From Myxococcaceae bacterium (GTDB lineage: Bacteria; Myxococcota; Myxococcia; Myxococcales; Myxococcaceae): a DNA stretch of 32,000 nucleotides. How positions within the stretch are numbered: the stretch's first letter is position 1; each line of letters starts with the position of its first letter. The translations under genes and the position numbers were made by a program. The stretch is taken from contig JALOQF010000014.1 of NCBI GenBank assembly GCA_025459425.1, forward strand, positions 1 to 32,000. The letters are read 5' to 3'. Positions 1 through 32,000 of this stretch are shown here, one piece after another. The notes under the pieces were generated by a model that was not told the origin of the DNA, ran no database searches, and was given only the letters and a program-made list of their open reading frames with translations.

Positions 1-1827
<1,827 letters not shown>

Positions 1828-1840
1828 GGGGAGTCGGCCT

Positions 1841-2896: not shown

Positions 2897-2918
2897 GGAA
2901 GGCTCCGGTGAAGTGACG

Positions 2919-3848: not shown

Positions 3849-3874
3849 ATCGACATATCGATGTACGTCGATAC
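3847..3874. promoter_or_regulatory. AT-rich palindromic operator candidate (TATCGA half-sites) abutting the start codon of the SahR-like gene
   Basis: The plus strand reads atatcgacatatcgatgtacgtcgatac. Positions 3856-3873 (tatcgatgtacgtcgata) form TATCGA-N-GTAC-N-TCGATA, with 16 of 18 positions dyad-symmetric. A third TATCGA half-site lies at 3848-3853. The local GC content is far below the window average. Confidence 0.45.
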
Positions 3875-3918
3875 GGGTCGCCGCGCAAGCGTTGATCAGC
3901 CCGGGCGCCCGCTGGTTC

Positions 3919-5133
3919 TCAGACGACGGGCGCGAGGGCGGCTCCTGGCTCGTGGCGCACGAACGCGCGGCGGCTCCACAGGTGGAGCAGCACCACGACG
4001 CCCACCGCTGCCGCGGCACCGAACAGTGGAAGCGGTTGAAGCGCGGCGAGGACCAGGACGGCCGCTGCTCGAACCACCTGGGTCCGAAACGACGCGGTCC
4101 AATCACCGAACGCGGTGAGCGCTCCCGCGGGGCTGAGCTTGAAGAACAGGAGGGCCAGCGGCAACCCGACGCCCGGGAGCAGCCCCGCCGCCGCGAACAC
4201 GGGCACCAGCACGGCCACCCGACGGTCGACGGAGTGCACGAAGGCCGTGCGCTCGGCGGACGAATTCCACGGTGGGTTGCCGCACGACGCACAGACGCGA
4301 CGTGGGTCACGCCCGAGGCGCTCGGCACACGAGGGACAGCGATGCGCGAGCAGGAGTCCGAGTCGATGTCTGGCGTCGTCGTCTGGAGCTCCGCTGACAG
4401 GGCGGCCCCACGGCGCCAGTCGCGCGGGACTGCGCCCGTGGCGACAGGAAGGACAGGTCGAGGCGGCTCGGTGAACCGACGCCCCGCAGGCCTCGCACGC
4501 GGTGCGGCTGCCCTCGATGAACCGTCGCAGCAGCACCACCAGCACGAGCAAGCCCACGAGCGATGCCAGGGCCAGCCCCGCACCGACCAACGGAAACGTG
4601 AGGGCCAGGGCGAGCCCACACACCACCCACCAACACTCCGCGAGGAACAGCACCCGGCCGAGTCCGCCCGTGCCCGAGACCGGAAGGCCGTCGAACAACG
4701 ACCCCAGACGACCGCGCAGCCTGGCGAACGCCCAGGCCAGGACCGCGACGAGCACCAGCTTCCACGCGTCGCCCGACACACCCGCGAGGGCGAAACCGGT
4801 TCGTTCGAGCGCGCGCTGCCCCAGCATGCCGAGCGTACTCGCCGCGAAGAGGACCGAGAGGGTGATGGCGACCACCTCGTGGAGTCGTCGCTCCAGTTCG
4901 CGCGAGAGTTCGACCAGCTCGTACGCCAGGTCACGGACACGCTCCGCCAGCACCTGAAGCACCACCCCGAGCACCCCAGCCAGGAGCGACACCGCAAAGC
5001 CACCGACGTCCCAGGTCCCGCGGTCCCAGGCGAGCCGCAGGCCCATCAGCATCGCCAGCAACCCCGCCGCCAGAAGCGGGCGGCCCGCGAGAAATGGAAC
5101 GACCGCAAGGCTCAACGCGAGGGTCTGCGTCAT
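3919..5133 (-). CDS. Polytopic membrane protein with a central double zinc-ribbon (hypothetical)
   Basis: Track ORF of 404 aa. It has several hydrophobic helices on both sides of the segment CEAC...CPSC...CPSC...CASC (two CxxC-Nn-CxxC ribbons). Codon third positions are G/C-rich across the whole ORF. It sits 70 nt upstream of the SahR-like gene on the same strand. Confidence 0.65.
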   Translation of the reverse strand: MTQTLALSLAVVPFLAGRPLLAAGLLAMLMGLRLAWDRGTWDVGGFAVSLLAGVLGVVLQVLAERVRDLAYELVELSRELERRLHEVVAITLSVLFAASTLGMLGQRALERTGFALAGVSGDAWKLVLVAVLAWAFARLRGRLGSLFDGLPVSGTGGLGRVLFLAECWWVVCGLALALTFPLVGAGLALASLVGLLVLVVLLRRFIEGSRTACEACGASVHRAASTCPSCRHGRSPARLAPWGRPVSGAPDDDARHRLGLLLAHRCPSCAERLGRDPRRVCASCGNPPWNSSAERTAFVHSVDRRVAVLVPVFAAAGLLPGVGLPLALLFFKLSPAGALTAFGDWTASFRTQVVRAAAVLVLAALQPLPLFGAAAAVGVVVLLHLWSRRAFVRHEPGAALAPVV

Positions 5134-5170
5134 GGTTGGCTTCGGACGTGACGGCTGCCGGTGGATTCAG

Positions 5171-5252
5171 CCTGAAATCCGAGGGTTGGCCCGCGCCCCA
5201 GCCTCCTGGAACGCGGCCTTCAAGCGCGATGGGGGCGACCTGAAATCCGAGG
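5171..5252. repeat. Two exact copies of the 14-mer CCTGAAATCCGAGG, 68 bp apart, in the intergenic region upstream of the 3919..5133 gene
   Basis: The copies are at 5171-5184 and 5239-5252. Copy 2 lies in the hairpin CCTGAA(5239-5244)/TTCAGG(5253-5258). Copy 1 lies in the imperfect palindrome GGATTCAGCCTGAAATCC (5163-5180). Confidence 0.5.
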
Positions 5253-5336
5253 TTCAGGGCTGGTGCAAACGGGGCCCGCCTTCCTCTGTGGCCTCGGCGA
5301 CCTGCCCCACGCTGCCGCTCGAGCTTCGATGCGCGC

Positions 5337-5906
5337 TCACTGCGCCTTCACACACTTCGCCGTGTCGGCCCCCGTGTGCGCGCACGCCTCGCCCTCGCGG
5401 CAGCACTGGTCCATGCACTGGCGATGGGCGCAGCGACACCGGCCGGCGGCGAGGTCGGAGCCAGCACAGTCGTCGCTCTGGGGAACCCCGGCATCGAGTG
5501 ACTCACGCGCGACGTTCTCGGCGGCCCGGTCGATGGCGCGGTTCACCTGCTTGCAGTCGAGCACCGACCATTCAGCGCGGTACCTCGAGAGCAGGGCGTC
5601 TCGCTCGACGGGGTCGACCTTCTCCTGCTCGAGCTTCTTCCGCAGGTGCACGAGCTCGGCCTCGAGCTGCTCTCCGCGCGAGCACGCCAGCGTGCGGGCA
5701 TCGAAGGCTTTGCACTCGACGATCCACTTCTGGCCCAGGCGCTCGGCCGCGTTGGGGAACTGGCGGAAGAACGGCGGCAGCTCGCCCTTCACCTCGCGCG
5801 CGAGCCACGCCTTCCAGACGCCAGGCCAGAGTTGGTCGCACGACAGCGGAGCGGCCGAGAGGACGAGCGAGAGCATCAGCGACATGTGGGCAGTGTGCTC
5901 GGCCAC
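5337..5906 (-). CDS. Secreted hypothetical protein with a Cys-rich C-terminus (possible lipoprotein)
   Basis: Track ORF of 189 aa. The signal-like sequence MSLMLSLVLSAAPLSC suggests the true start may be the ATG at 5885. A coiled-coil-like middle section is followed by the C-terminal CAGSDLAAGRCRCAHRQCMDQCCREGEACAHTGADTAKC. GC3 is very high in this frame. Confidence 0.6.
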   Translation of the reverse strand: MAEHTAHMSLMLSLVLSAAPLSCDQLWPGVWKAWLAREVKGELPPFFRQFPNAAERLGQKWIVECKAFDARTLACSRGEQLEAELVHLRKKLEQEKVDPVERDALLSRYRAEWSVLDCKQVNRAIDRAAENVARESLDAGVPQSDDCAGSDLAAGRCRCAHRQCMDQCCREGEACAHTGADTAKCVKAQ

Positions 5907-5942
5907 GGGTCGCGCTGCACGAGTGAACCAGGTGAGCCCTGC

Positions 5943-6398
5943 TCAAAACGTCACGCCCGACAGCGTCACCACGCCGCCGTTGTTCCCTTCCAGCAGCCGG
6001 AACCCGATGCGCGTCGGCCGCACGCTGGTGACCGCGCCCTCTTCGGCCCCCGGCTCGTCGAGCTCGAGCGCCAGCAGCGCACACCCGACGCTCTGGAGCG
6101 ACAGGCTCATCGCGCTCAACGCCACCCGTGCCTGCCAACCAGCCTGGCGATGGTGCGTCTCCATCAGCATCACGCTCATGGGGCCCAGCAACGGCACCTC
6201 GCTGGCGACGAGGTCGAAGCGGCCGAAGAGCGGCGTGACGGCGCCGAGCTCGGACGAGCGGTCGAGCCACGGCCGGCCACCACCCGCCGCGAAGCCCGCC
6301 TCGCCCGCCACGAGGAACACGTCTCCGAGGCTGACCGTCTTCGCTGGGGCCGTGACGGGCATGGCGGCGAGGGCGGCGGTGAGCAGGAGCGAAACCAT
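5943..6398 (-). CDS. Small secreted hypothetical protein
   Basis: Track ORF of 151 aa with the N-terminal signal-like sequence MVSLLLTAALAAMPVTAPA. It ends in ...LSGVTF (terminal Phe). The frame is GC3-rich. I recognise no family. Confidence 0.55.
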   Translation of the reverse strand: MVSLLLTAALAAMPVTAPAKTVSLGDVFLVAGEAGFAAGGGRPWLDRSSELGAVTPLFGRFDLVASEVPLLGPMSVMLMETHHRQAGWQARVALSAMSLSLQSVGCALLALELDEPGAEEGAVTSVRPTRIGFRLLEGNNGGVVTLSGVTF

Positions 6399-6432
6399 GG
6401 CCGCGAGCAGAGCAAGCCGTCGGCCACCCGCA

Positions 6433-6473
6433 GTTCAAGGGGTTGAACGTTCGGACTGTGCAACGGGTTGCAC
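6433..6473. promoter_or_regulatory. Two adjacent inverted repeats in an intergenic GC dip (operator or hairpin candidates)
   Basis: The repeats are GTTCAA-GGGG-TTGAAC (6433-6448) and GTGCAAC-GG-GTTGCAC (6458-6473). They lie between the stop of ORF 6617..6844 and the start of ORF 5943..6398, both on the minus strand. Confidence 0.3.
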
Positions 6474-6616
6474 ACCCTGCCCGTTTCCCCGCTGCGCCTT
6501 GCACACGTCGGGAGCGACGCGCCGGCGTCGACACGGGCTCACGAGCTTCGACGAACCGACCTGCCAGGCGTCGGAGCGGTCCAGGCCGTCCATCGCCTCA
6601 GCCCGCGCCTCGAGGC

Positions 6617-6844
6617 TCAATGGGGCGTGAACACATACGAGCCGCTGACCGGCTCGGGGAGCAACACCGTGGCCGTGGTGAACCCGGCCGTGACGAAGAA
6701 CGACCCGTTCGCGAGCCGCGCTGCGGCCTCCTGGCCGCAGAGCCCCATTCGTTCGACGTTGGAAGGCACAGCCAAGGATTCGAGCACACACGCCGAGCCG
6801 AAGAGGAGCGAGCTGAGGAGCACCGAGCAGACGGTTCCGCGCAT
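6617..6844 (-). CDS. Small putative lipoprotein (75 aa)
   Basis: Track ORF beginning MRGTVCSVLLSSLLFGSAC|V, with a lipobox-like FGSAC. About 87% of third positions are G/C in this frame. The antisense track ORFs 6443..6910 and 6468..6926 lack such features. Confidence 0.5.
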   Translation of the reverse strand: MRGTVCSVLLSSLLFGSACVLESLAVPSNVERMGLCGQEAAARLANGSFFVTAGFTTATVLLPEPVSGSYVFTPH

Positions 6845-6973
6845 TCGCGCCGCCTACCACGGCGAGGCCGGCGTCAGACATGTGGGAAAGGCCAGCACGC
6901 GCCCGAGTGAAGAAGCCATCGGGTGAGTCACCGTCAAAGGGTGGTGTCCGCCGTGGACGTATTCCCCCGTGAG

Positions 6974-7072
6974 TGGAGGAATCCGGAGTCGAACCGGTTG
7001 CGTGGGCGTGTGGGGCCTCGTCGGCCGGGCGCGTGCTGGTGCGCCGCACGTCGCGCGTGAGACGAGATTCCT
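6974..7072 (-). other. tRNA-like (selC-like?) remnant or structured element; not a convincing functional tRNA
   Basis: The minus strand carries a canonical T-arm, CCGG-TTCGACT-CCGG (plus-strand ggagtcgaacc at 6985-6995), followed by ATTCCTCCA. A 7-bp terminal pairing AGGAATC (7072-7066) with GATTCCT encloses about 96 nt. I cannot build a D-arm or a 7-nt anticodon loop. Confidence 0.25.
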
Positions 7073-7098
7073 GACCGGGCACCCGCTACCGTGTCCTC

Positions 7099-10000
7099 AT
7101 GCGCAAGGTCGTCCTCGTCGCTGGAGCGCTCCTCACCGCCTGCCTGGACGTCACCGTGCCGCAGCCGCCACCTCCGGCGGGCCCCGGTTCGCTGCAGGGC
7201 ACCGTGGTGTATTCCGTGCCCGGCCGCACCGGCCTTCGGCCCGCGGGCGGCGCCACCGTCACCCTCGTCGGCACGTCGCGGCGAGCCACCGCCGACGCCG
7301 AGACCGGCCGCTTCGAGCTCGACGGGCTGACGCGCAGCACGGGCCAGGTCCTCTTCACCTTCGACGCCACCGGTGATGGCGTGATCGACCGCCAGAGGGT
7401 GCTCGAGCTCTCGTCCGTCGGCGCGGGCCGCGGGAAGACCATCGCGCTGGGCGACGTGGCGCTGGGTCGCAATGGCTCCGTCGTCGGCACCGTGCTGCGC
7501 GGTGACGTCGTCGGGCCGAGTGGGCATGCAGGCACCGCCGTCTTCGTCGCCGGCCTGCCCATCGCCACCGCCACCAGCGACCGCGGCGAGTTCGTGCTCG
7601 AGAACCTGCCCGAGGGCCGGGTGACGGTGTCGTTCTTCCGCGCGGGCTACCTCGCCGAGACGGCCGACCTCGAGGTGCGCTCCGGCCAGGAGTCACAGGC
7701 CGCCACCGTTCGGCTCCAGGTCGACCCGGCGGCCTCGTCGGCCGCGCCCGCGCGCCTCACCGGCACCCTGCGCTTCGAAGACGACTCGCCCGTCGCCAAC
7801 GCGCGCCTCCTGCTCGTCTCGGGGGCGCTGCGCCTCACCAGCACCACCGGGCCCACCGGCGCCTTCACCGTCGAGGCGAGCCAGGCCGCGCTCTTCCAGG
7901 TGGGCATCGAGGCCGAGGGCGCGCAGAGCCTCGTCCTCTCCAACGTGCTGCTGTTGCCCGGCACCACCGACCTCGGCGTCCTGGCCCTCACGCGCGGCAC
8001 CTCGACGCCCATCGACTTCGACGGCGGCTTCAACCCGGGCACGCCCGACGCGGGCCCCTCCGTCATCGCCGTCATCGACCCGCCGGTGCTCGACGTCGTG
8101 CCGGGCGGCACCGGCACCCTCTCGAGCGCGCGCTCGACCGGCACCCGGCCCCTCACCTCGCGCTGGCGCACCCGGCAGGACGGCGGCCTCGAGCTGCTGT
8201 TCGCCACCCCCATCACCACCGGCGCGCTCAGCACCTTCACCGCGCCCGACGCCTCGGGCCTGTTCTCCGTCGGCCTCGAGGTCATCGACGTGAGCGGCAC
8301 GGTGAGCGCCGAGGCGAGCGCGCTGGTGCGCGTGGGCCGCGCCCCGACGGTCTCGCTGACGCCATCGACCATGCAGGTGCAGTCGGGCGACCAGGTGACG
8401 CTCACTGCCACCCCGCAGTCCGAAGACGGCCGGCCCATCAGCGAGTTCCGCTGGAGCCAGGTGACGGGCCCCGCGGTGCCCGCCGTGGCGACTGAAACCG
8501 GCGCGACGCTCACCTTCACCGTGCCGCCCGTGCCGGGCCTCATCCCCATGACGTTCGAGGTTCGGGCGCGCACCGACCTCGGCTTCGAGAGCGCTCCAGC
8601 CGGCGTGACGCTCCAGGTGCAGCCGCGGGGCGCGCCGCGGCTCACCATCACCACGATGTCCACCCCCGTGACGTGGACGGGAGGCCCCCGCCCCATCGTG
8701 CGGCTCAGCGCGACGCTCTCGGGCGCGGCACCGCAAGACACCGTCAGCTTCGCGTGGTCGCCCGCGGTGCAGTTCGCCTGCCCGCTCTCCGACGGCGGCT
8801 CCGACGCCACCTGCCCCCTCGCCGTGGTGCTCTCGGACGTGACAGGCCCGACGACGGAGTTCTTCGCGCCCGCGGTGTCGGGCGACCAGTCGGTGCGCTT
8901 CACGGCGACGGCCCGGGGCTCCGATGGTGGTGTGCTGGCGACCGAGGCCGTCGACGTGACGGTGCTCGACCGCCGGCCGCCGAGCTGTCGCGCCAACCTG
9001 ACGCGGCTCGCGCTGCGCGTGCAGTGCGACGAGGCGCTCGCGAGCGGCCCGATGCTCGACGGAGGCCCCAACACGCCACCCCACAGCGTCGAGGTCGACG
9101 GTGGCCTCGCCCTGTTTCTCTTCGAGACGTTCCCCGCCGGCCCCCTGACGCTCTCGGTGTCGGGTATCGCCGACAAGGCCAACAACCCGCCCGCCGCCCC
9201 CATCACGATTCCATCGAACGTGGGCCTCGACGTGTCCTCGGTGTTCGCCGCCGGCGGCACCTCGGTGGCGAACCCGCGGCCCACGTGGGTGTCCGGCTCC
9301 GCGTCGCAGGGCGCACCGGCCCGCCGCTTCGTCATCGGCCGCGCCACCACGGCGACCAACCGCCAGGTGTGGCTGTGGGACCCCGAGAACACGTGCAGCC
9401 TGCTGCCCTGCCAGCAGTTCACCCTCAGCATTCCGCTCCCCGGCGCCGAGCCCGGCCCGTCCCTCGGCGCCGTGGTGGCGGGCTCACGCACGTACCTCAT
9501 CACCTCGCGCACCAACCCCAACGCGCTCGTCGAGTTCAGCAACGGCACGGCGCGCGAGTTCCTGCCCACGACGATGCCGCCGCTGGTGGGCCTGTCGGCC
9601 ATCGGCGACGACCTGTGGGTGCTGTCGACCGACGGCGGCCCGTTGACCCGTCAGCGCCTCATCGGCACTGCGTCTGACGGCGGCACCCTCGCGCCACCGG
9701 AGCTGGTGAACGACGAGTTCAACGGTGCCCTCGCCGACGTCTTCGCGAGCCCCGACGGGCAACAGGTGGCCGCGGGCCTCGTGGACGACTTCTCAGTCTT
9801 CCGCTTCCGGCAGTTCGACGGCGCCTCGCAGCAGTGGGGCGTCGCGGGAGAGCTCGCCCTGCCCAGCGCTGCGACCGTCGTGGGAACCCGCGGCGCCTTC
9901 CTCGGGCCTTCACCTGGCCGGCCGGTGTGGGTGACGGCCGAGTCGGGCGGCGCCCTGCGCGCGTCGTTCGAGCTGCCCGGCACCCCGCCCATGGCGACCT

Positions 10001-23768: not shown

Positions 23769-24649
23769 CGTCGCTGGTGCGGCTGCCGTCAGGCGGAGCG
23801 CTCCACCTCGAAGGCCCCGCGCAGGCTGACCGCCCGGCGCTCCTGTTCCTGCACGGCGTCGGTGGTGCAGCCTGGTCGTGGGCCCCACAGCGCACGGCGT
23901 TCTCGTCGACCCACGCGTGCTTCACCTGGGAAGCGCGTGGGCACGGGCAGGCCGCTGCGTGCGACGACGCGGGCCTCGCCGACTACCACCTCGACGCCAG
24001 CGAGGCGCTCGGGTGGATTCTGGCCAACACGGCGCACGACGTGGTGCTCGTCGGCCACTCGATGGGCGGGCTGCTCGCGGTGGCGCTCGCGTGCGAGGTG
24101 CGCGCGCGCATCGCTGGCGTCTTCCTCGTCGACCCGGTCTACGCGGAGCGCGGTGACGGCGTTCCCCTGCCCTCGGTTCTCCTCGCGCCGCTCCGGGTGT
24201 TCTTTCGTGCGGTGGCCCGCTCGTTCCAGCGCGGCGGTTGGCTCGGGCGCGCCGTCGCCTGGCCCTTCTTCAAGTGGGCGTTCCTCGACGCGCGCGTGCG
24301 CGACGCGACGTGGCCGCTTCAGCTCGCGCAGCGGCCCATCGAGTACCCGCGCACGGTGCTCGAGGCGCTCGACGGCGTGAGGGGGTTTCCCTTTCGGCCC
24401 TTCGCCGACGAGCTCGACGTGCCGATGGTGCTGCTCGAGGCCGTGCAGAGGCCGAAGCAGAGGCGCCGCTTCGAGTCGGTGGTGACGCGCCTGCGCTCCC
24501 GGCTGGGCGAGCGCTTCCGCCACGAGGTGGTGCTGAGCGGCCACTACGTGCAGCTCGACCGGGCCGAGCTGACGACGTCACACCTCGAGGCCTTCGTCGC
24601 CAGCGCGCTCGTCCTCTTCCTCCTCGTAGCGGGGACACCGGGCGCATGA
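23765..24649 (+). CDS. Alpha/beta hydrolase
   Basis: This is the 3' 294 codons of track ORF 22910..24649, from the GTG at 23765. That GTG overlaps the MFS stop (GTGA). Motifs: ALLFLHGVGGAAWSW (HG oxyanion), LVGHSMGG (GxSxG nucleophile) and VLSGHYVQLD (catalytic His). Confidence 0.8.
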   Translation: MTSLVRLPSGGALHLEGPAQADRPALLFLHGVGGAAWSWAPQRTAFSSTHACFTWEARGHGQAAACDDAGLADYHLDASEALGWILANTAHDVVLVGHSMGGLLAVALACEVRARIAGVFLVDPVYAERGDGVPLPSVLLAPLRVFFRAVARSFQRGGWLGRAVAWPFFKWAFLDARVRDATWPLQLAQRPIEYPRTVLEALDGVRGFPFRPFADELDVPMVLLEAVQRPKQRRRFESVVTRLRSRLGERFRHEVVLSGHYVQLDRAELTTSHLEAFVASALVLFLLVAGTPGA

Positions 24650-24835
24650 CGCCGCGAGGCACTCACAGCTGCAGGTGCCGTTCTTCAGCTTCGTACACGA
24701 CTCGTTGGGGTCGCATGACCGGCACTCCCCGTCCTCGAGCGAGTGCCGCTGGGTCGCCCCGGTCTGGGGAGCCTCGACGGTGCCGCACGCCAGCGCGAGG
24801 CTGAACAGAAAACACTTCAAGAATGACCGATGCAT
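24578..24835 (-). CDS. Small Cys-rich lipoprotein with an acidic tail (85 aa)
   Basis: This is track ORF 24578..24892 trimmed to the ATG at 24835: MHRSFLKCFLFSLALAC|GTVEAP (lipobox LALAC). It continues ECRSCDPNESCTKLKNGTCSCECLAASCARCP and ends YEEEEDERAGDEGLEV. Its last 72 nt overlap the convergent hydrolase gene. Confidence 0.5.
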   Translation of the reverse strand: MHRSFLKCFLFSLALACGTVEAPQTGATQRHSLEDGECRSCDPNESCTKLKNGTCSCECLAASCARCPRYEEEEDERAGDEGLEV

Positions 24836-24949: not shown

Positions 24950-24996
24950 GTGAACGTAATTCGCCGGTTCACGGCCGGGGCCGCTGCCCCTAGACT
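24950..24996 (+). promoter_or_regulatory. Inverted repeat plus sigma70-like promoter candidate upstream of the OmpA/FecR/cyclase cluster
   Basis: The inverted repeat is GTGAAC (24950-24955)-N11-GTTCAC (24967-24972). TTCACG (24968-24973)-N17-TAGACT (24991-24996) resembles TTGACA-N17-TATAAT, with 4 of 6 matches in each hexamer. The element lies in a low-GC patch 10 nt upstream of the ATG at 25006. Confidence 0.3.
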
Positions 24997-25005
24997 TTGG
25001 CGTGG

Positions 25006-27680
<2,675 letters not shown>

Positions 27681-27684
<4 letters not shown>

Positions 27685-28877
27685 CCCGTTCCCTCCTGTT
27701 GCGCGCGCTCGTCGTGGTGAGCCTCGGCCTCGCGCCCGCTGCCCGGTCGGCGCCCGACGCGTGCGGCGGCGTGAAGCTCGAAGCCGGCGCGATTCGCCTC
27801 GGCAAGCCGCTCACCGACGCCTTCGTGAAGACGGCCGACGGGAAAGCCTGCCTCGGCGACGTGGTGAAGGAGGTCGAGCGCAACCGCCTCGTGCGCGCGG
27901 TGACGGTGGCCGCCATCGTGTCGGACGCGGAGCGCGCGAGCGGCAAGGGCCTCGACGCGGCGAAGGCCGTCGCGGCGGCGCTGGTGGACGCGGGCCTGCC
28001 GAAGAACCGCGTCTTCAGCCTCGCGCCCGCGCCGCAGCGCACCGACGTGCCCGGCCTGTCGCTGCGCTACGTCGAGCGCGCGCCGGAAGACGTCGTGGCC
28101 CGGGTGGCCGCCGCGGGCGGGAGCGTGTTCCTCGGCGCCGACGAGCGCGCCCTCAAGCCCGCCGAGCCCGGCATGCCGGTGCTGGTGAACGAGCTGGTGA
28201 AGACGGGCCCCAACGCGCGCGCCACCATCGCCATGAAGGACGGCAGCACCGTCGAGGTGAAGCCCGAGTCGACCATCAAGCTCGCCGTCATGCAGTTCCC
28301 CGCCGGTGGGGAGCGGCAGGTGAAGATCGAGATTCTGGGTGGCGGCATCGTGGCCGACGTGAAGAAGGCCACCCAGCTCGGCCGCTTCGAGGCCTCGACG
28401 CGCGTGGCGGTCGCCTCGGTGCGCGGCACGCAGTTCCGGCTCGGCGTCTCGGAAGACAGCGGCGCGCGCCTCGAGACCCTCGAGGGAGTCGTCGGCGTCG
28501 CGCCGGCGAACGACCCGTCGGCCACGCCGGTCGAGGTGAGCGCGGGCCAGGGCACGCTGGTGAGCGCCGAGGGCAAGGTCGAGCCGCCGAGCGCGCTCCC
28601 GGCCGAGCCCGTGCCCACCGCGCCGCTGAAGGGGGCGCTGGGGGCCGACGCGCGGCTCGACTGGCAGGCCGTCACCGGCGCCACCAGCTACCGCGTCGAG
28701 CTGGCGCGCGACCCCGACTTCCTCGTCGACGCGAAGAGCGCTTCGACCGAGGCCACCACGCTGTCGTGGCCCGAGGCGCTCGCGAAGGGCAAGTGGTTCT
28801 GGCGCGTCACCGCCGTCGACGCGAAGGGCTTCTCGGGCCCCTCGTCGAAGATCTACGCCTTCACGGTGGGCAAGTGA
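27681..28877 (+). CDS. Periplasmic FecR-domain protein with a C-terminal Fn3/Ig-like domain
   Basis: Track ORF of 398 aa with an ATGA overlap on the OmpA stop. The signal is MTRSLLLRALVVVSLGLAPAARS|A. The FecR-type segment is VLVNELVKTGPNARATIAMKDGSTVEVKPESTIKL...ASVRGTQFRLGV. The C-terminus reads LDWQAVTGATSYRVELARDPDF...WFWRVTAVDAKGFSG (Fn3-like). There is no TM anchor or anti-sigma domain. Confidence 0.85.
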
Positions 28878-31798
28878 CGAAGCCCGGCCGCCTCGACCTT
28901 CCGGGCCTTGGGCTCGTGGGAGGCGCGCTCGCCCTCTGGGTGATGCGCGACGAGGCGGCGTGGGCGTTGACGGCGCGCTTCAAGGAGGTGGGGTTTCCTC
29001 CGCTGGCGCTGTTGGTGCGCGCGAGCGTCGCGCTGCTCGGCGCGGCGGGCCTCTTCCGGGTTCGCGACACCCTGCGGGCGCTCGGCGCGGGGGCGCTGGG
29101 TGTGCTCGACGCGGCCGAGGCGCGGCTCTCGGCGCTGCCCACCACCCGGGGCCGCGTGCTGCGGTCGCTCGCCCTCACGCTCGTCGCCTCGGGCCTCACG
29201 CTGACGCTCTTCGAGGCCACGCCGCTGGGGCCGATGCTCGAGACGCGCGTGCTCGACCTCTTCTTCCGCCTGCGCTTCCCCGAGCGCTCGCAGGCCGAGC
29301 TCGCGACGGGCCAGGCGCTCCCCTCGGCCAACCCCCAGCCCGACGTGGTGGTGGTGGCCGTCGACGACGACACCATCTCGCACCTGGGTTGGCCGCTCCC
29401 GCGCGTCCACTACGCGCGGCTGCTCGAGCGGCTCTCGACGGCAGGCGCCCGCCGGGTAGCCTTCGACGTCGCCTTCGTGGACGCGTCGCGTGAGCACCCG
29501 GAGTGGGACACGGCGCTGGGCGCGGCAGCCCGGGCGGCGCCCACCTCGGCCTTCACCTTCACCGTCGCACGGCTGGGCACCGACGCGCGGCCGACCATGT
29601 CGGAGCGCGCGCTGGCGGCGCTCGACGCCAACTCGATTCCGCTCCACCCCTCGGCCGAGCGGCTGCCCCCGTACCCTGCGCTCGTGGGCGGAGACGTGGC
29701 GCCGCAGCCGGTGCTCGACGCGCTGCTCGAGTCGGGCCGGCCGCTGGCGATGGCGAACGTGCTGCTCGACTCGGGTGACGACCTCTTGCGGCACTCGCTC
29801 GTGGTGGCGCGCCTGTCGGGCCGGCTGCTGCCCTCGCTGTCCTTGCGGCTCGCGGCCGAGGAGCTCGGTGTGCCGCTCTCCTCCATCCGGGTGGAGCCGG
29901 GCTCGCACGTCGACCTCGGGGGCCAACGGCGCATTCCCATCGACGCGCTCGGGCGCACGCTGGTGCGCGCCCAGGGCCGGCACGACACGCGCGGCCAGGG
30001 ACCGTTCCAGTACGTGTCGATGTGGTCGCTCTTGCGCACCGACGTGACGCTCACCCTGGCCGGCAACCCGCTCGGAGAAGACCAGCGCTTCGTGCTCGAC
30101 GAGCAGACGCGCGTGACGAAGGACGGGGTGGTGGTGCCGGCGGCCGAGGTCGAGGGCCTCGTGCACGAGGGGGCGTTCCTCGCAGGCCGGGCCCGCTACT
30201 CGACGGACCCGGGCCGCATCGTCGAGCTGGCGTTCTCGTCGACGGCGCCGCGGCCGCCAGAGCCCGACTTCGAGCTGCTCGACGAGCACGTCATGCGCTT
30301 CGGCACGCTGGTGGCCTCGACGAAGCGCAACCAGCTCGACCCGGCGCTCTTCACCGGCAAGCACGTGCTGGTGGGCTCGACGGCGCTGGCCGCCGCCGAC
30401 CTGCGGAACACGCCGCTGGGTGAAGCGCCCGGCGTCGAGCACCACGCCACGATGCTGGCGAACATCCTCCACCAGGACTTCTTCACCGAGACGCCCCGGT
30501 GGGCCGGGGTGCTCTTCGTGCTCGCGGCGGCGCTCCTGGCGGCGCTCGGGGGCCTGTCGTTGTCGAGCGAGCTGGCGCTGCTGTCGACGGCGCTGCTGCT
30601 GCTCGCGTGGCTCACCGCCTCGTATGGCTCGTTCGTCTCGGGGGTGCGGGTGCCCGCCGTCGCGCCGGCGGTCTCGGCCTCGCTCAGCGCGCTCCTGGTG
30701 CTCGTGCTCGGCGCGCGCGCGGCCCGGCTCGCCCGTCGCAAGGCCGAGTCCGAGCGCGAGTTCGTTCGCCAGACGTTCGGCCGCTACCTCACCGAGCAGG
30801 TGGTGCAGCAGCTCCTCGACTCACCCGACGGGCTCGCGCTCGGCGGCAAGCGCGGCTTCGTCACCATCATGATGACCGACCTGCGGGGCTTCACGAGCAT
30901 GTGCGGCACCATGGAGCCCGAGGCGGTGGTGAAGCTGCTCAACCACTACCTCGAGGCGATGACGCGCATCATCACCCGCTACGGCGGCACCATCGACGAG
31001 TTCATCGGCGACGCCATTCTCGTCGTCTTCGGCGCCCCGGTTCCGCTCGAGCACCCCGAGCTCCGCGCGGTGGCCTGCGCCATCGAGATGCTCAACGTCA
31101 TGCCCGACATCAACGCGTGGAACGCGAAGCACGGCCTGCCCGCCGTCGAGATGGGCATCGGCATTCACAGCGGCGAGGTGGTGCTGGGGAACATCGGCTC
31201 CGAGCTGCGCGCGAAGTACGGCATCGTCGGCGCCACCATCAACCTCACCTCGCGCGTCGAGTCGTACACCGTCGGCGGCCAGGTGCTGCTCTCGGAGACG
31301 ACGCGCGAGCGGTGCGGAGACGCGCTCACCGTCGGCGCCTCGCAGGTGGTGTCACCCAAGGGCGTGAAGGGCACGATGACCATCTTCGAGGCGCTCGGCG
31401 TGGGCGCGCCCTTCGAGGTGTCGCTCACCTCGGCCGCCGAGGCGCTGGCGCCGCCCAACCGCGTGCTCGAGTTCCGCTACGCGCTCATCAAGAACAAGCA
31501 GGTGTCCGACGAGGTGCGCGTGGCGCGGGTCGAGGCCTTGTCCGACCGCGGGCTCGAGCTGAAGGTCGACGAAGCGCTCCCCACGCTGAGCGACCTGAAG
31601 CTCGAGCTGCTCGAAGACGGCGCCCCGCGCCCCGGCGAGCTCTACGGCAAGGTGCTCAAGGCCGACGTGCGGCCGAACGTCGTCTACCTGCGCCTCACCT
31701 CGGTGCCGAACGAGCTGCGCCCCGTGCTCGAGGCCGCGCGCTCCGTCGTCGCCCCTCCGTCCGTGCCGGTCGCGCCGTCTGCCCTGGTGTCGTCATGA
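28874..31798 (+). CDS. CHASE2 sensor / class III nucleotidyl cyclase (predicted guanylate cyclase) with an extra C-terminal domain
   Basis: This is the 3' 974 codons of track ORF 27761..31798, from the GTG at 28874. That GTG overlaps the FecR stop (GTGA); an alternative ATG lies at 28943. The CHASE2 hallmark is VVVVAVDDDTISHLGWPLPRVHYARLLERLSTAGARRVAFDVAFVD. Three TM helices span roughly 30480-30720. The cyclase core reads FVTIMMTDLRGFTS...GGTIDEFIGDAILVVFGAP...IGIHSGEVVLGNIGS...KYGIVGATINLTSRVES. Confidence 0.9.
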   Translation: MTKPGRLDLPGLGLVGGALALWVMRDEAAWALTARFKEVGFPPLALLVRASVALLGAAGLFRVRDTLRALGAGALGVLDAAEARLSALPTTRGRVLRSLALTLVASGLTLTLFEATPLGPMLETRVLDLFFRLRFPERSQAELATGQALPSANPQPDVVVVAVDDDTISHLGWPLPRVHYARLLERLSTAGARRVAFDVAFVDASREHPEWDTALGAAARAAPTSAFTFTVARLGTDARPTMSERALAALDANSIPLHPSAERLPPYPALVGGDVAPQPVLDALLESGRPLAMANVLLDSGDDLLRHSLVVARLSGRLLPSLSLRLAAEELGVPLSSIRVEPGSHVDLGGQRRIPIDALGRTLVRAQGRHDTRGQGPFQYVSMWSLLRTDVTLTLAGNPLGEDQRFVLDEQTRVTKDGVVVPAAEVEGLVHEGAFLAGRARYSTDPGRIVELAFSSTAPRPPEPDFELLDEHVMRFGTLVASTKRNQLDPALFTGKHVLVGSTALAAADLRNTPLGEAPGVEHHATMLANILHQDFFTETPRWAGVLFVLAAALLAALGGLSLSSELALLSTALLLLAWLTASYGSFVSGVRVPAVAPAVSASLSALLVLVLGARAARLARRKAESEREFVRQTFGRYLTEQVVQQLLDSPDGLALGGKRGFVTIMMTDLRGFTSMCGTMEPEAVVKLLNHYLEAMTRIITRYGGTIDEFIGDAILVVFGAPVPLEHPELRAVACAIEMLNVMPDINAWNAKHGLPAVEMGIGIHSGEVVLGNIGSELRAKYGIVGATINLTSRVESYTVGGQVLLSETTRERCGDALTVGASQVVSPKGVKGTMTIFEALGVGAPFEVSLTSAAEALAPPNRVLEFRYALIKNKQVSDEVRVARVEALSDRGLELKVDEALPTLSDLKLELLEDGAPRPGELYGKVLKADVRPNVVYLRLTSVPNELRPVLEAARSVVAPPSVPVAPSALVSS

Positions 31799-32000
31799 GA
31801 GCCTGCCTCGTCGTCGCGTTCTTCGTCCTGTCGGGCTGCAGCTGGCTCACCGCGCCACCGAGCGCGTGCAGCGATGGCGTCGTGAATGGTGAAGAGACCG
31901 ACGTCGACTGTGGCGGCCCCGGGTGTGGGCCCTGCGCTGGCGGGCTGGCGTGCCTCGAGGCCGACGACTGCGCTTCGGGCGCGTGCGTGCTCAACCGGTG
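31795..32000 (+). CDS. Cys-rich lipoprotein, 5' part only (runs off the window)
   Basis: Not in the track because it is open to the window edge. The ATG at 31795 overlaps the cyclase stop (ATGA). My translation is MRACLVVAFFVLSGC|SWLTAPPSACSDGVVNGEETDVDCGGPGCGPCAGGLACLEADDCASGACVLNR..., with lipobox LSGC and a GEETDVDCGG...C..C....C....DC.SG.C motif. Confidence 0.6.
   Translation, partial: MRACLVVAFFVLSGCSWLTAPPSACSDGVVNGEETDVDCGGPGCGPCAGGLACLEADDCASGACVLNR

What the first reader, a model, noticed from the sequence alone, without database searches (positions are those of the whole stretch)
24950..32000. Overlap-coupled four-gene cluster: TSP3-OmpA, periplasmic FecR-domain protein, CHASE2 cyclase and Cys-rich lipoprotein, a candidate trans-envelope second-messenger module
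Seen in sequence:
- Four consecutive plus-strand genes are joined by 4-nt stop/start overlaps: ATGA at 27681-27684, GTGA at 28874-28877 and ATGA at 31795-31798. This implies co-translation and probably fixed stoichiometry.
- The predicted locations tile the whole envelope. The first protein has an outer-membrane barrel-like N-terminus, nine Ca-binding-type TSP3 repeats and a peptidoglycan-binding OmpA_C domain.
- The second is a soluble periplasmic FecR-domain/Fn3 protein with a signal peptide and no TM segment.
- The third is an inner-membrane cyclase with a periplasmic CHASE2 sensor.
- The fourth is a lipoprotein.

Established knowledge: FecR domains act in FecA-FecR-FecI cell-surface signalling. 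No defined ligand is known for CHASE2.

Inference: this looks like a FecA/FecR-style outside-in relay in which the output is a cyclic nucleotide rather than an ECF sigma factor. The TSP3-OmpA protein would be the surface or cell-wall (possibly Ca2+ or mechanical) input. I recall FecR genes sitting next to CHASE2 genes in other genomes, but I know of no mechanistic description of this four-part arrangement.
Basis: partly seen in the sequence, partly recalled or inferred. Interest (0 to 1): 0.8.

Follow-up and report, generated by a model that had tools for sequence, protein, structure and literature searches.

The report
Envelope-spanning CHASE2 cyclase sensing operon
The four overlapping genes are real and form the start of a conserved myxobacterial operon in which an outer-membrane/cell-wall tether and a periplasmic FecR-type protein sit next to a membrane CHASE2 cyclase that probably makes cyclic GMP; it is a new variant of a widespread but mechanistically unstudied gene pairing, not a FecA/FecR system.

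Summary
Four plus-strand genes are joined by ATGA/GTGA/ATGA overlaps at the stated coordinates, and every domain call holds.

The window cuts the operon. In the closest relatives it continues with a second Cys-rich lipoprotein and a TPR plus two-cNMP-binding-domain protein.

The conserved core is a triad:
- a barrel-like/TSP3/OmpA_C protein;
- a secreted N-domain/FecR/Fn3 protein;
- a CHASE2 cyclase.

This triad keeps its order, and almost always its overlaps, in 19 loci down to about 34% identity.

The cyclase is of the Synechocystis Cya2 type. It has the Glu/Gly specificity pair and the Cya2 C-terminal extension, so cGMP is the likely product.

FecR next to CHASE2 is not new. It is reported in Burkholderia, Pseudomonas, Campylobacterota and Sinorhizobium. 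In my survey, 34 of 45 informative loci with distant FecR relatives had a CHASE2 gene just downstream. Those CHASE2 proteins were mostly histidine kinases, and 23 of 30 partner proteins carried LysM.

So the general module is a cell-wall-linked FecR-Ig protein plus a CHASE2 sensor with any output. Here LysM is replaced by a private N-domain plus a separate OmpA_C/TSP3 protein.

It is not FecA/FecR-like in its parts: there is no TonB receptor, STN domain, anti-sigma domain or ECF sigma factor.

Verdict: a new variant of a known kind, of moderate interest.

The parts
24997..27684 (+). G1: secreted barrel-like / TSP3-repeat / OmpA_C protein (895 aa; alternative ATG start at 25006)
   Evidence: ORF. 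Pfam OmpA 2.9e-22 and TSP_3 1.6e-17. The NCBIfam TraB model scores 173 bits against a cutoff of 700, so it is TraB-like in architecture only. Orthologues lie upstream of every full-length G2 relative.
25087..25926 (+). G1 N-terminal domain (about residues 31-310), putative 12-stranded outer-membrane beta-barrel
   Evidence: Low-confidence AF2 model (pLDDT 44) with 12 long strands. Conserved terminal aromatic residue. No Pfam hit for the window protein. A homologue in L107 gives a marginal PF13557 hit. The homologue P0241 is named 'porin'.
26119..27300 (+). Nine thrombospondin type 3 (Ca2+-binding type) repeats of G1
   Evidence: Regex DxDxDGxxDxxDxCP matches 9 times at residues 375-752. Pfam TSP_3 hit.
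27364..27648 (+). OmpA_C peptidoglycan-binding domain of G1 (residues 790-884)
   Evidence: Pfam PF00691, residues 790-884. The GHTDD...LSQKRAEAI motif was read in the sequence.
27681..27684 (+). ATGA stop/start overlap between G1 and G2
   Evidence: Read. A GGGAGAG Shine-Dalgarno-like run lies 8 nt upstream. The 4-nt overlap is conserved in 18 of 19 triad loci.
27681..28877 (+). G2: secreted soluble protein with a signal peptide, a family-specific N-domain (residues 26-136, nt 27756-28088), a FecR domain (about residues 138-300, nt 28092-28580) and an Fn3-like domain (residues 305-398, nt 28593-28874)
   Evidence: Pfam FecR 1.9e-15. AF2 model with pLDDT 85. Foldseek top hits are 4M0N/4M0H BDI_1681 and 6OVK_R PupR CCSSD, followed by Fn3 arrays. 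The N-domain occurs in 94 clusters, nearly all with the same architecture.
28874..28877 (+). GTGA stop/start overlap between G2 and G3
   Evidence: Read. The same junction is AAGTGA or AAATGA in 11 of the 16 loci scored, and a 14-nt overlap in 3.
28874..31798 (+). G3: inner-membrane CHASE2 / class III nucleotide cyclase of the Cya2 type (974 aa)
   Evidence: Pfam CHASE2 9.6e-41 and Guanylate_cyc 2.4e-25. Hydrophobic segments at residues 95-113 and 545-613. Best PDB match is 2W01 Cya2 at 2.6e-59.
29204..30541 (+). Periplasmic CHASE2 domain of G3 (residues 111-556), followed by three TM segments (residues 545-613, nt 30506-30712)
30857..31318 (+). Cyclase catalytic domain of G3 (residues 662-815): CTE motif FGRY at 635, metal-binding Asp 669 and 713, specificity residues Glu709 (nt 30998-31000) and Gly783 (nt 31220-31222)
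   Evidence: Residue-by-residue alignment to Cya2 (2W01, wild-type Glu) and to its E488K adenylate-cyclase variant 6FHT. Residue numbers checked. Cya2 biochemistry is from PMC5995499.
31376..31753 (+). C-terminal extension of G3 (about residues 835-960), shared with Cya2-like cyclases
   Evidence: No Pfam hit. An HMM I built finds it in 28 of 88 loci. In nearly all of these the motifs read were Glu/Gly; L057 and L065 carry Lys/Thr.
31795..31798 (+). ATGA stop/start overlap between G3 and G4
   Evidence: Read. The same 4-nt overlap is seen in L001, L003 and L090.
31795..32000 (+). G4 (5' end only; cut by the window): Cys-rich Stig1/MXAN_6577-like lipoprotein, about 450 aa in relatives
   Evidence: Lipobox LSGC read. 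Full-length orthologues in L001 and L009: Stig1 4.9e-15, NF041328 6e-35. Present in 10 of 10 loci of the close clade.

Best explanation
What it is
This is the 5' two-thirds of a co-translated operon from an uncultured Myxococcaceae/Archangiaceae lineage. It encodes an envelope-spanning sensor that produces a cyclic nucleotide.

Shown
- G3 is an inner-membrane receptor cyclase with a periplasmic CHASE2 domain and a Cya2-type catalytic domain.
- G2 is a soluble periplasmic protein. Its FecR-plus-Ig/Fn3 core belongs to the protein type that is encoded immediately upstream of CHASE2 sensors across many phyla, whatever their output domain.
- G1 (barrel-like domain, nine TSP3 repeats, OmpA_C) is encoded upstream of every G2-type protein that carries the private N-domain.

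Inferred
- G2 binds the CHASE2 domain through its FecR/Fn3 core and sets the activity of the cyclase.
- G2 is held at the outer membrane/peptidoglycan layer by G1 through its N-domain. This N-domain takes the place of the LysM domain that anchors the usual partner directly to peptidoglycan.
- The signal is therefore a property of the cell wall or outer envelope relayed by a protein partner, not a small ligand bound by CHASE2 alone. Candidates are wall integrity or geometry, Ca2+ loading of the TSP3 linker, or something bound by the surface Cys-rich lipoproteins G4/G5.
- Because G3 has the Glu709/Gly783 pair of Cya2, the product is most likely cGMP.
- The product would be read in this lineage by the downstream TPR plus 2x cNMP-binding protein G6, which lies outside the window. 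In sister lineages it may be read by a neighbouring cNMP-binding GGDEF enzyme.
For: Domains and topology.

Operon extent and conservation
- L001, L003 and L009 carry six same-strand genes.
- The triad alone is present at about 50% identity with unrelated flanks: L005, L091, L101.
- The overlaps are conserved.

G1-G2 coupling
- 21 of 21 metagenomic full-length G2 relatives, plus all earlier loci, have the barrel/TSP3/OmpA gene immediately upstream.
- The N-domain is confined to this architecture.

FecR-CHASE2 coupling
- 9 of 55 unrelated CHASE2-cyclase loci have a FecR ORF within 3 kb: 0.039 per kb near the cyclase, against 0.006 per kb far from it and 0.0025 per kb in cyclase loci without CHASE2.
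- 34 of 45 informative FecR-relative loci have a CHASE2 gene within 2.5 kb downstream on the same strand.
- The outputs of those CHASE2 proteins are 20 histidine kinases, 2 GGDEF-EAL and 1 cyclase.
- FecR neighbours occur with both Glu/Gly-type and Lys/Thr-type cyclases.
- 23 of 30 partner proteins carry LysM plus an Ig/Fn3-like domain.

cGMP
- Best PDB match is Cya2 (2W01, 2.6e-59), with identical Glu and Gly at the specificity positions. The E488K variant 6FHT is the adenylate-cyclase version.
- The C-terminal extension is shared with the Glu/Gly subfamily.

Precedents
- Outer-membrane barrel NsrA acting upstream of CHASE2 cyclases in S. meliloti (PMC13001267, PMC7529298).
- Guanylate cyclase plus cNMP-GGDEF in Xanthomonas (PMC3770947).
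Against: - No interaction, transcript or enzyme data exist for any of these proteins.
- A sister clade (L105-L113) keeps the G1/G2 pair with no CHASE2 gene nearby. The pair therefore has a function that does not need an adjacent CHASE2 protein.
- In S. meliloti, the FecR-domain protein SMc02177 was reported not to be required for plant-signal perception by the CHASE2 cyclases (PMC5498481).
- The barrel assignment for G1 rests on a low-confidence model.
- Whether the N-domain binds G1, peptidoglycan or neither is untested. Its similarity to OmpA_C is only suggestive (Pfam E = 0.2; hhalign E = 0.0018 with probability 15%).
- Nucleotide specificity is inferred from two residues and homology.
- G6's second cNMP-binding domain lacks the conserved phosphate-binding Arg (read).
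- G6 is missing from 3 of 8 close loci that have room for it.
Confidence: 0.6

Rival explanations
1. G1 and G2 form an envelope structural or housekeeping complex (an outer-membrane-to-peptidoglycan tether with a periplasmic accessory protein). In one clade this pair merely came to share an operon with a CHASE2 cyclase. The cyclase senses something else, and the pair is not its input.
For: - A sister clade has the G1/G2 pair followed by a RoxA-like dihaem cytochrome c, or by HEAT plus peptidase M2 genes, with no CHASE2 gene.
- A homologue with a G1-type barrel-like N-terminal domain, TSP3 and OmpA_C also occurs next to unrelated genes (P0241 in L092).
- OmpA_C/TSP3 proteins are common structural envelope proteins (NCBIfam hits).
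Against: - The FecR-Ig core of G2 is exactly the protein type that accompanies CHASE2 sensors in other phyla.
- The G2/G3 junction is a conserved 4- or 14-nt overlap in 14 of 16 loci scored.
- The triad persists with unrelated flanks at about 50% identity.
Confidence: 0.2
2. The FecR-domain protein is a target or feedback element of the cyclic-nucleotide pathway rather than an upstream co-sensor. It would be an inhibitor or an envelope effector whose level is set by the pathway.
For: In S. meliloti the FecR-domain gene smc02177 is a Clr (cAMP) target and was not needed for signal perception (PMC5498481).
Against: - Being encoded upstream of the sensor and translationally coupled to it is unusual for a downstream target.
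- The same pairing occurs with histidine kinases and GGDEF-EAL proteins, whose outputs differ.
Confidence: 0.1
3. A true FecA/FecR-type cell-surface signalling relay. G1 acts like a FecA transducer, binding a surface ligand and passing the signal to G2 as FecA does to FecR, with a cyclase replacing the ECF sigma factor.
For: - The G2 FecR domain superposes on the PupR/FecR-type periplasmic domain (6OVK_R, 137 columns, rmsd 2.2).
- The three proteins have an outer-membrane / periplasm / inner-membrane arrangement.
Against: - G1 has no TonB-dependent receptor, plug or STN domain.
- G2 lacks the anti-sigma domain, the TM segment and the STN-like subdomain that contacts the transducer. It has an Fn3-like domain there instead.
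- No ECF sigma factor or TonB-box protein is found in the window or in syntenic loci next to the triad.
- Most relatives of G2 use LysM, a wall anchor, not a transducer partner.
Confidence: 0.05
4. G3 is an adenylate cyclase, as current database names say, and the module is a cAMP system.
For: - Database names for orthologues say 'adenylate cyclase' or 'adenylate/guanylate cyclase'.
- Most CHASE2 cyclases surveyed have the Lys/Thr adenylate-cyclase pair.
- The S. meliloti CHASE2 cyclases make cAMP (PMC13001267).
Against: - G3 and all its orthologues whose motifs were read (L001, L003, L005, L009) carry Glu/Gly, not Lys/Thr, and group with Cya2, a biochemically characterised guanylate cyclase.
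- A single Glu-to-Lys change is what converts Cya2 into an adenylate cyclase.
Confidence: 0.25

Closest known systems
COG4254-type LysM-FecR protein plus CHASE2 sensor kinase (Burkholderia 'BiofilmReg' operon RR / LysM-FecR / CHASE2-HK / DUF4136; P. aeruginosa PA4035-PA4036)
   Same: - A secreted FecR-domain protein is encoded immediately upstream of, and on the same strand as, a CHASE2 membrane sensor.
- The partner protein has a C-terminal Ig/Fn3-like domain.
- There is a link to peptidoglycan.
(PMC5192318.)
   Different: - The output here is a class III cyclase, not a histidine kinase.
- G2 has no LysM domain. It carries a private N-domain instead.
- A separate barrel-like/TSP3/OmpA_C protein is translationally coupled upstream.
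- Cys-rich lipoproteins and a cNMP receptor lie downstream.
Synechocystis sp. PCC 6803 Cya2 (CHASE2-regulated guanylate cyclase; PDB 2W01)
   Same: - The CHASE2 / TM / CTE (FGRY) / class III catalytic domain / C-terminal extension architecture.
- The Glu and Gly specificity residues.
- E = 2.6e-59 over the catalytic domain.

   Different: - No FecR or OmpA partner was described for Cya2 in the papers I read.
- The CHASE2 domain of G3 is about 190 residues longer than the Pfam model.
- The organism and gene neighbourhood differ.
Sinorhizobium meliloti NsrA plus CyaD1/CyaD2/CyaK (outer-membrane beta-barrel receptor upstream of CHASE2 adenylate cyclases), with the FecR-domain protein SMc02177
   Same: - An outer-membrane barrel protein is genetically required for activation of inner-membrane CHASE2 cyclases.
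- A FecR-domain periplasmic protein belongs to the same regulon.
(PMC13001267, PMC7529298, PMC5498481.)
   Different: - The product there is cAMP.
- No shared operon of nsrA with the cyclases is described in the papers read, and no similarity to G1 was tested.
- SMc02177 was reported as dispensable for signal perception.
Campylobacterota CHASE2 adenylate cyclase / phosphodiesterase / FecR-domain protein / TPR protein cluster
   Same: A CHASE2 cyclase is clustered with a FecR-domain protein and a TPR protein (PMC9239204).
   Different: - That cluster contains a phosphodiesterase, which is not seen here.
- It has no OmpA/TSP3 or Cys-rich genes.
- The TPR protein here is fused to cNMP-binding domains.
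FecA-FecR-FecI / PupB-PupR-PupI cell-surface signalling
   Same: The beta-rich periplasmic FecR domain fold (Foldseek match to 6OVK_R and 4M0N).
   Different: There is no TonB-dependent transducer, STN domain, anti-sigma domain, TM anchor or ECF sigma factor.
Xanthomonas campestris XC_0250 (guanylate cyclase) / XC_0249 (cNMP-binding GGDEF)
   Same: A bacterial guanylate cyclase is linked to a cNMP-domain receptor. A 327-aa cNMP-GGDEF gene lies beside the cluster in L003, L089, L090 and L010 (PMC3770947).
   Different: - In the window's own lineage the linked receptor is a TPR plus 2x cNMP-binding protein without a GGDEF domain.
[quoted passage not shown]
Myxococcus xanthus TraB (outer membrane exchange)
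   Same: TSP3 repeats plus an OmpA_C domain. TraB is the best NCBIfam model for G1 (6.5e-51).
   Different: - The score of 173 bits is far below the family cutoff of 700.
- No traA-like neighbour is present.
- The N-terminal domain differs.

Membership tests
FecR/PupR-type anti-sigma regulators (cell-surface signalling) | Periplasmic FecR domain (PF04773 fold) | tested here: met
   Pfam 1.9e-15. Foldseek matches to 4M0N (1.8e-7) and 6OVK_R (6.6e-7).
FecR/PupR-type anti-sigma regulators (cell-surface signalling) | N-terminal cytoplasmic anti-sigma domain and a single TM anchor | tested here: not met
   G2 starts with a cleavable-type signal peptide. The model shows no other hydrophobic helix, and no such Pfam domain is found.
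FecR/PupR-type anti-sigma regulators (cell-surface signalling) | C-terminal STN-like subdomain that binds the transducer's signalling domain | tested here: not met
   The C-terminal domain is Fn3-like (Foldseek Fn3 arrays; weak DUF4962 hit). No FecR_C hit.
FecR/PupR-type anti-sigma regulators (cell-surface signalling) | Adjacent ECF sigma factor and TonB-dependent transducer with an STN domain | tested here: not met
   None is found in the window or directly flanking the triad in L001, L003, L005, L090 or L091. G1 has no TonB_dep_Rec or STN hit.
Cya2-type CHASE2 guanylate cyclases | N-terminal periplasmic CHASE2 domain flanked by TM segments | tested here: met
   PF05226 at 9.6e-41, residues 111-556. 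Hydrophobic segments at residues 95-113 and 545-613.
Cya2-type CHASE2 guanylate cyclases | Class III catalytic domain with Glu (Cya2 E488) and Gly at the base-specifying positions | tested here: met
   Glu709 in GGTIDEFIGD and Gly783 in KYGIVGATINLT align to the same residues of 2W01. 6FHT carries the E488K adenylate-cyclase variant.
Cya2-type CHASE2 guanylate cyclases | Conserved C-terminal extension after the catalytic domain | tested here: met
   An HMM built from residues 835-960 finds 28 loci. In nearly all of these the motifs read were Glu/Gly; L057 and L065 carry Lys/Thr. A structurally uncharacterised C-terminal extension of Cya2 is described in PMC5995499.
Cya2-type CHASE2 guanylate cyclases | GTP-selective cyclase activity | not testable with these tools
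   Needs an enzyme assay.
FecR-partner + CHASE2 sensor module (COG4254/CHASE2 pair) | A secreted FecR-domain protein encoded directly upstream of a CHASE2 membrane sensor on the same strand | tested here: met
   G2/G3 share a 4-nt overlap. The same arrangement is seen in 34 of 45 informative loci of distant FecR relatives.
FecR-partner + CHASE2 sensor module (COG4254/CHASE2 pair) | N-terminal LysM domain on the FecR protein | tested here: not met
   G2 has no LysM hit. 23 of 30 distant partner proteins have one. G2 has a different 110-residue N-domain.
FecR-partner + CHASE2 sensor module (COG4254/CHASE2 pair) | Ig/Fn3-like domain C-terminal to the FecR domain | tested here: met
   Model residues 305-398 with Foldseek Fn3 matches. 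Ig_J, DUF4962 or fn3 hits in the distant partner proteins.
OmpA family peptidoglycan-binding proteins | OmpA_C domain with the conserved Asp/Arg peptidoglycan-contact motif | tested here: met
   PF00691 at 2.9e-22. GHTDD...LSQKRAEAI was read. Actual peptidoglycan binding is untested.
Outer-membrane beta-barrel proteins | Closed transmembrane beta-barrel in the G1 N-terminal domain | tested here: inconclusive
   12 predicted strands, but pLDDT is 44. No Pfam hit for the window protein. Marginal PF13557 hit in the L107 homologue.
TraB (myxobacterial outer membrane exchange) | Score above the NCBIfam NF033763 cutoff | tested here: not met
   172.9 bits against a cutoff of 700.
Bacterial lipoproteins (G4) | Signal peptide ending in a lipobox Cys | tested here: met
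   MRACLVVAFFVLSGC, read. Orthologues have LSGC or VSAC. Lipidation itself is untested.

The most novel reading that the evidence does not exclude
CHASE2 is not a small-molecule receptor. It is the membrane-proximal receiver for a cell-wall-anchored FecR-Ig adaptor protein. In this myxobacterial lineage the adaptor is docked to a Ca2+-binding TSP3 'spring' that links the outer membrane to peptidoglycan. Envelope geometry, mechanical load, Ca2+ status or surface contact (through the Cys-rich lipoproteins) would then be converted into cGMP. That would give CHASE2 its first defined input and would define a trans-envelope cGMP pathway in bacteria.
Probability: 0.2. Interest if true: 0.8.

Novelty: new variant of a known kind. 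Interest (0 to 1): 0.5.

Why it matters
CHASE2 is a widespread extracytoplasmic sensor domain. The papers I read still describe its signals as unknown.

The survey done here sharpens a scattered literature observation into a rule. CHASE2 sensors of any output class tend to be preceded by a secreted FecR-Ig protein that is tied to peptidoglycan. That tie is made either by its own LysM domain or, in this lineage, by a co-translated OmpA_C/TSP3 outer-membrane protein.

This points to a protein partner and the cell wall, rather than a diffusible ligand, as the place to look. It can be tested in tractable species such as P. aeruginosa (PA4035/PA4036) and Burkholderia.

The window's variant also adds a predicted guanylate cyclase with its likely cNMP receptor in the same operon. 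In the papers read here, bacterial cGMP signalling rests on only a few characterised systems (Cya2, Xanthomonas XC_0250).

Tried and rejected
- **G1 as TraB:** rejected; the score is far below the cutoff.
- **G2 N-domain as an OmpA_C-like or LysM-like wall-binding domain:**
  - Only weak signals: Pfam OmpA E = 0.2; hhalign E = 0.0018 with probability 15%.
  - A profile search against PDB found nothing.
  - A search of 1.84 billion cluster representatives found only G2-type proteins.
  - Left as unknown.
- **G3 C-terminal tail as a PilZ-like domain** (my guess from reading the sequence): no Pfam or NCBIfam support. It is instead the extension shared with Cya2-like cyclases.
- **P0324 as a natural G2-CHASE2-cyclase fusion (Rosetta stone):** rejected as evidence. 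The domains are truncated and two-thirds of the sequence is Arg/Gln/Pro-rich out-of-frame-looking text.
- **Promoter and terminator consensus scans:** nothing found; uninformative at 72% G+C.
- **Genome-contig scan:** I therefore cannot say whether cultured myxobacteria carry the cluster. Among the source-named hits listed, none is from a cultured isolate (MAG labels or generic 'hypothetical protein' names only).
- **Structure searches:**
  - A fold search of the G1 model was not attempted because pLDDT is 44.
- **cNMP-binding domains of G6 and of the CNB-GGDEF neighbour:** their best PDB hits are apicomplexan PKGs. I do not regard that as evidence for cGMP selectivity.

Full report
**1. What is in the sequence**

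The region has about 72% G+C. On the plus strand, one search lists these ORFs:
- G1, 24997-27684 (895 aa).
- G2, 27681-28877 (398 aa).
- A long frame whose in-phase GTG at 28874 gives G3, 28874-31798 (974 aa).
- G4, an ORF starting at 31795 that runs off the window.

Reading the junctions directly gives ATGA at 27681-27684, GTGA at 28874-28877 and ATGA at 31795-31798. A GGGAGAG run lies 8 nt before the G2 start.

| Gene | Domain | E-value |
|---|---|---|
| G1 | OmpA | 2.9e-22 |
| G1 | TSP_3 | 1.6e-17 |
| G2 | FecR | 1.9e-15 |
| G3 | CHASE2 | 9.6e-41 |
| G3 | Guanylate_cyc | 2.4e-25 |

Further points:
- A regex finds exactly nine DxDxDGxxDxxDxCP units in G1.
- G4 begins with a lipobox (LSGC) and is Cys-rich.
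- A sigma-70/terminator consensus scan found nothing and is uninformative at this G+C content.

**2. The window cuts the operon**

G2 has more than 140 relatives at 49-91% identity. Those that carry organism names are all labelled as MAGs of Myxococcaceae, Archangiaceae or Myxococcota. G3 behaves the same way.

Three loci carry six same-strand genes: G1, G2, G3, a roughly 450-aa Cys-rich lipoprotein (G4), a second Cys-rich lipoprotein (G5), and a protein of about 415 aa with TPR repeats and two cNMP-binding domains (G6). The loci are:
- L001 (85% G2 identity; syntenic with the window, including the upstream SBP_bac_3-SLT, MFS and hydrolase genes).
- L009 (95% G2 identity; a Myxococcaceae MAG).
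- L003 (67% G2 identity; labelled 'Archangium sp.'; different flanks).

G4 and G5 hit Stig1 (about 5e-15) and pass the NCBIfam MXAN_6577-like Cys-rich model. G6 hits cNMP_binding at 1.7e-31.

The junctions in L001 and L003 are 4, 4, 4 and 16-nt overlaps, followed by a 12-27-nt gap.

**3. How far each part is conserved**

I combined look-ups by protein with a metagenome scan seeded with the G2 alignment. I then scored all loci with HMMs built here. The results:
- The triad G1-G2-G3 is found in the same order in 19 loci, down to 34% G2 identity (L104).
- G4 is present in 10 of 10 loci of the clade with at least 60% G3 identity that have room for it.
- G6 is present in 5 of 8 such loci.
- Neither G4 nor G6 is present in the clades at or below 53% identity. 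There the triad is followed instead by a TPR-SLT lytic transglycosylase and a PhoPQ_related protein (L005, L091).
- The G1/G2 junction is a 4-nt overlap in 18 of the 19 loci and a 1-nt overlap in the remaining one.
- At the G2/G3 junction, 11 of the 16 loci scored have a 4-nt overlap and 3 a 14-nt overlap. In several loci the start is ATG where the window has GTG, which fixes the G3 start.

Four-base overlaps are the commonest kind in compact bacterial operons (background knowledge). On their own they do not prove fixed stoichiometry. Their persistence across this much divergence is good evidence for co-translation.

**4. The cyclase is a Cya2-type, probably guanylate, cyclase**

- The best solved relative of the catalytic domain is 2W01, Synechocystis Cya2 (E = 2.6e-59).
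- The printed alignment shows G3 Glu709 (GGTIDEFIGD) and Gly783 (KYGIVGATINLT) opposite the same residues of Cya2.
- The top hit, 6FHT, is the engineered Cya2 E488K protein and shows Lys at that position.
- PMC5995499 describes Cya2 as a CHASE2-regulated guanylate cyclase. It can be switched to an adenylate cyclase by that single exchange, it has an FGRY transducer motif, and it has a structurally uncharacterised C-terminal extension.
- G3 has FGRY at residue 635.
- Its 125-residue tail is shared by 28 loci from many phyla. In nearly all of these the motifs read were Glu/Gly; L057 and L065 carry Lys/Thr.
- Most other CHASE2 cyclases in my sample have the Lys/Thr pair of class IIIb adenylate cyclases.

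Specificity is therefore inferred, not shown.

**5. What G2 is**

An AF2 model built on 37 orthologues (pLDDT 85) shows four parts:
- a signal-peptide helix;
- an alpha/beta N-domain (residues 30-132, with two invariant cysteines);
- a beta-rich FecR domain;
- an Fn3-like domain.

Foldseek puts the periplasmic domains of the anti-sigma factors BDI_1681 (4M0N) and PupR (6OVK_R; 137 columns, rmsd 2.2) on top, followed by Fn3 arrays.

So the FecR fold is real. G2 nevertheless lacks the anti-sigma domain, the TM anchor and the STN-like subdomain of true FecR/PupR proteins.

The N-domain is private to this architecture. A profile search of 1.84 billion cluster representatives found 94 clusters. Nearly all are 380-420 aa with the domain at the N-terminus, and nine of the ten I sampled carry FecR. 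The exception, P0326, has NUMOD/HTH domains and no FecR.

Its resemblance to OmpA_C is only suggestive.

**6. FecR goes with CHASE2, not with the output**

The literature already records FecR-domain genes beside CHASE2 genes:
- Burkholderia and P. aeruginosa: LysM-FecR plus a CHASE2 histidine kinase (PMC5192318).
- Campylobacterota: CHASE2 cyclase, phosphodiesterase, FecR-domain protein and TPR protein (PMC9239204).
- S. meliloti: SMc02177 in the cyaD1 regulon (PMC5498481).

I found no paper on mechanism.

My own counts:
- Among 55 non-orthologous CHASE2-cyclase loci, 9 have a FecR ORF within 3 kb. The density is 0.039 per kb near the cyclase, against 0.006 per kb further away and 0.0025 per kb in cyclase loci without CHASE2. 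These neighbours occur with both the Lys/Thr and the Glu/Gly types.
- Among 58 distant FecR relatives of G2 from metagenomes, 34 of the 45 with enough downstream sequence have a CHASE2 gene within 2.5 kb on the same strand.
- Of 23 complete CHASE2 proteins from those loci, 20 are histidine kinases, 2 are GGDEF-EAL proteins and 1 is a cyclase.
- Of 30 partner proteins, 23 carry an N-terminal LysM domain and most carry an Ig/Fn3-like C-terminal domain.

These loci were chosen by similarity to G2, so the percentages describe G2's relatives, not all FecR proteins.

**7. G1 goes with the N-domain**

- Every full-length G2 relative (21 of 21 in the metagenome set, plus all earlier loci) has a barrel-like/TSP3/OmpA_C gene directly upstream.
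- Nine of them (L105-L113, 33-37% identity) have no CHASE2 gene nearby. They are followed instead by a RoxA-like dihaem cytochrome c, or by HEAT plus peptidase M2 genes.
- The co-variation is therefore: N-domain with G1, and FecR-Ig core with CHASE2.
- The simplest reading is that G2 is an adaptor. Its N-domain docks to G1 or the wall, taking the place of LysM, and its FecR-Ig core addresses CHASE2.
- The sister clade shows that the G1/G2 pair can exist without an adjacent CHASE2 gene. This is the main support for the rival that G1/G2 is primarily a structural complex.

**8. Is G1 a barrel?**

- With only five sequences the AF2 model is poor (pLDDT 44). It nevertheless shows a signal peptide and 12 long strands.
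- The last strand ends in a conserved aromatic residue.
- NCBI calls one homologue 'porin'.
- The L107 homologue gives a marginal hit to the outer-membrane barrel family PF13557.

I treat the barrel as likely but unproven.

TraB is the best NCBIfam model, but the score is far below the cutoff.

**9. Comparison with FecA/FecR**

The window contains no ECF sigma factor and no TonB-dependent receptor. Its other genes are MetH-like pieces, hydrolases, a CarboxypepD_reg protein, hydrogenase/NADH-dehydrogenase-type genes, an SBP_bac_3-SLT protein and an MFS transporter.

The resemblance to FecA/FecR is limited to one fold and a three-compartment layout.

A closer functional precedent is S. meliloti. 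There the outer-membrane barrel NsrA is required for activation of the CHASE2 cyclases (PMC13001267, PMC7529298). However, the FecR-domain protein in that system was reported as dispensable for perception (PMC5498481).

**10. Downstream reading of the signal**

- G6 (TPR plus two cNMP-binding domains) is the obvious receptor in the window's lineage. Its second domain lacks the conserved phosphate-binding Arg (read).
- In L003, L089, L090 and the distant L010, a 327-aa cNMP-binding GGDEF gene lies beside the cluster.
- This mirrors the Xanthomonas XC_0250/XC_0249 route from cGMP to c-di-GMP (PMC3770947).
- Best PDB hits of these cNMP domains are PKGs. I do not take that as evidence of specificity.

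**11. Verdict**

It is wrong in calling it FecA/FecR-like, and incomplete about the operon's extent and its product.

The module is a new variant of the LysM-FecR/CHASE2 pairing, which is known but mechanistically unexplored. Three things distinguish it:
- an OmpA_C/TSP3 outer-membrane partner in place of LysM;
- a Cya2-type cyclase output;
- clade-specific Cys-rich lipoproteins and a cNMP receptor.

Noticed in passing
window 24578-24835 (- strand): An 85-aa ORF, MHRSFLKCFLFSLALACGT..., with a lipobox and many cysteines (GC3 0.84). It fills the 348-nt gap between the hydrolase gene and G1, and its 3' end overlaps the hydrolase stop. It has no counterpart in the syntenic loci L001 and L009, where the gap is short or different.
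   Followed up: partly
L003 20112-21095 (-), L089 13579-14562 (-), L090 13561-14544 (-), L010 3814-4794 (+): A 327-aa cNMP-binding plus GGDEF protein recurs next to the cluster in sister lineages, and next to a distant (38% identity) Cya2-like CHASE2 cyclase. This has the same logic as Xanthomonas XC_0250/XC_0249. It was not seen within the sequence available for the window's own lineage.
   Followed up: partly
L105-L113 (for example L107 6124-10636, L112 about 3400-7882): A sister clade keeps the barrel/TSP3/OmpA gene plus the N-domain/FecR/Fn3 gene but has no CHASE2 gene nearby. The next gene is a RoxA-like dihaem cytochrome c (L107, L112), or HEAT repeat plus peptidase M2 genes (L105).
   Followed up: partly
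L005 13036-17175, L091 11069-15215; upstream L005 4167-6614 (-): In the clade at about 52% identity, the triad is followed by an 850-aa TPR/SLT lytic transglycosylase and a PhoPQ_related protein. It is preceded by a divergent Ser/Thr kinase fused to a periplasmic-binding domain. This is another link to peptidoglycan.
   Followed up: no
L103 9122-11767: In one relative at 44% identity, an 882-aa protein with a beta-helix, five DUF4215 Cys-rich repeats and TSP3 repeats is inserted between the G2 and G3 homologues. Cys-rich secreted proteins therefore recur in this cluster in different forms.
   Followed up: no
L008 6787-9978: Three tandem FecR-domain genes lie directly upstream of a Lys/Thr-type CHASE2 cyclase. 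The public Pfam pre-computation had left them without any family.
   Followed up: partly
protein P0324: A 1154-aa database protein joins a truncated G2-like N-domain and FecR domain to partial CHASE2 and cyclase domains, followed by about 550 residues of Arg/Gln/Pro-rich text. It is most likely a gene-calling or assembly artefact, not a natural fusion.
   Followed up: yes
L010 7203-11434: An 'uncultured delta proteobacterium' MAG has an OmpA_C protein ending 27 nt before a Cya2-like CHASE2 cyclase (Glu/Gly pair, C-terminal extension). A FecR-domain ORF lies about 3.5 kb upstream on the opposite strand. This is a looser version of the same parts list.
   Followed up: partly
window 1-3112 (- strand): Methionine-synthase-type domains are split over two overlapping ORFs. 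One carries Pterin_bind plus B12-binding (nt 1-1881, cut by the window edge). The other carries S-methyl_trans (nt 1841-3112).
   Followed up: no
G3 residues 111-556 (window 29204-30541): The CHASE2 match spans 446 residues against a 257-position Pfam model. The domain therefore carries about 190 extra residues, and these are conserved among the orthologues. Their role is unknown.
   Followed up: no
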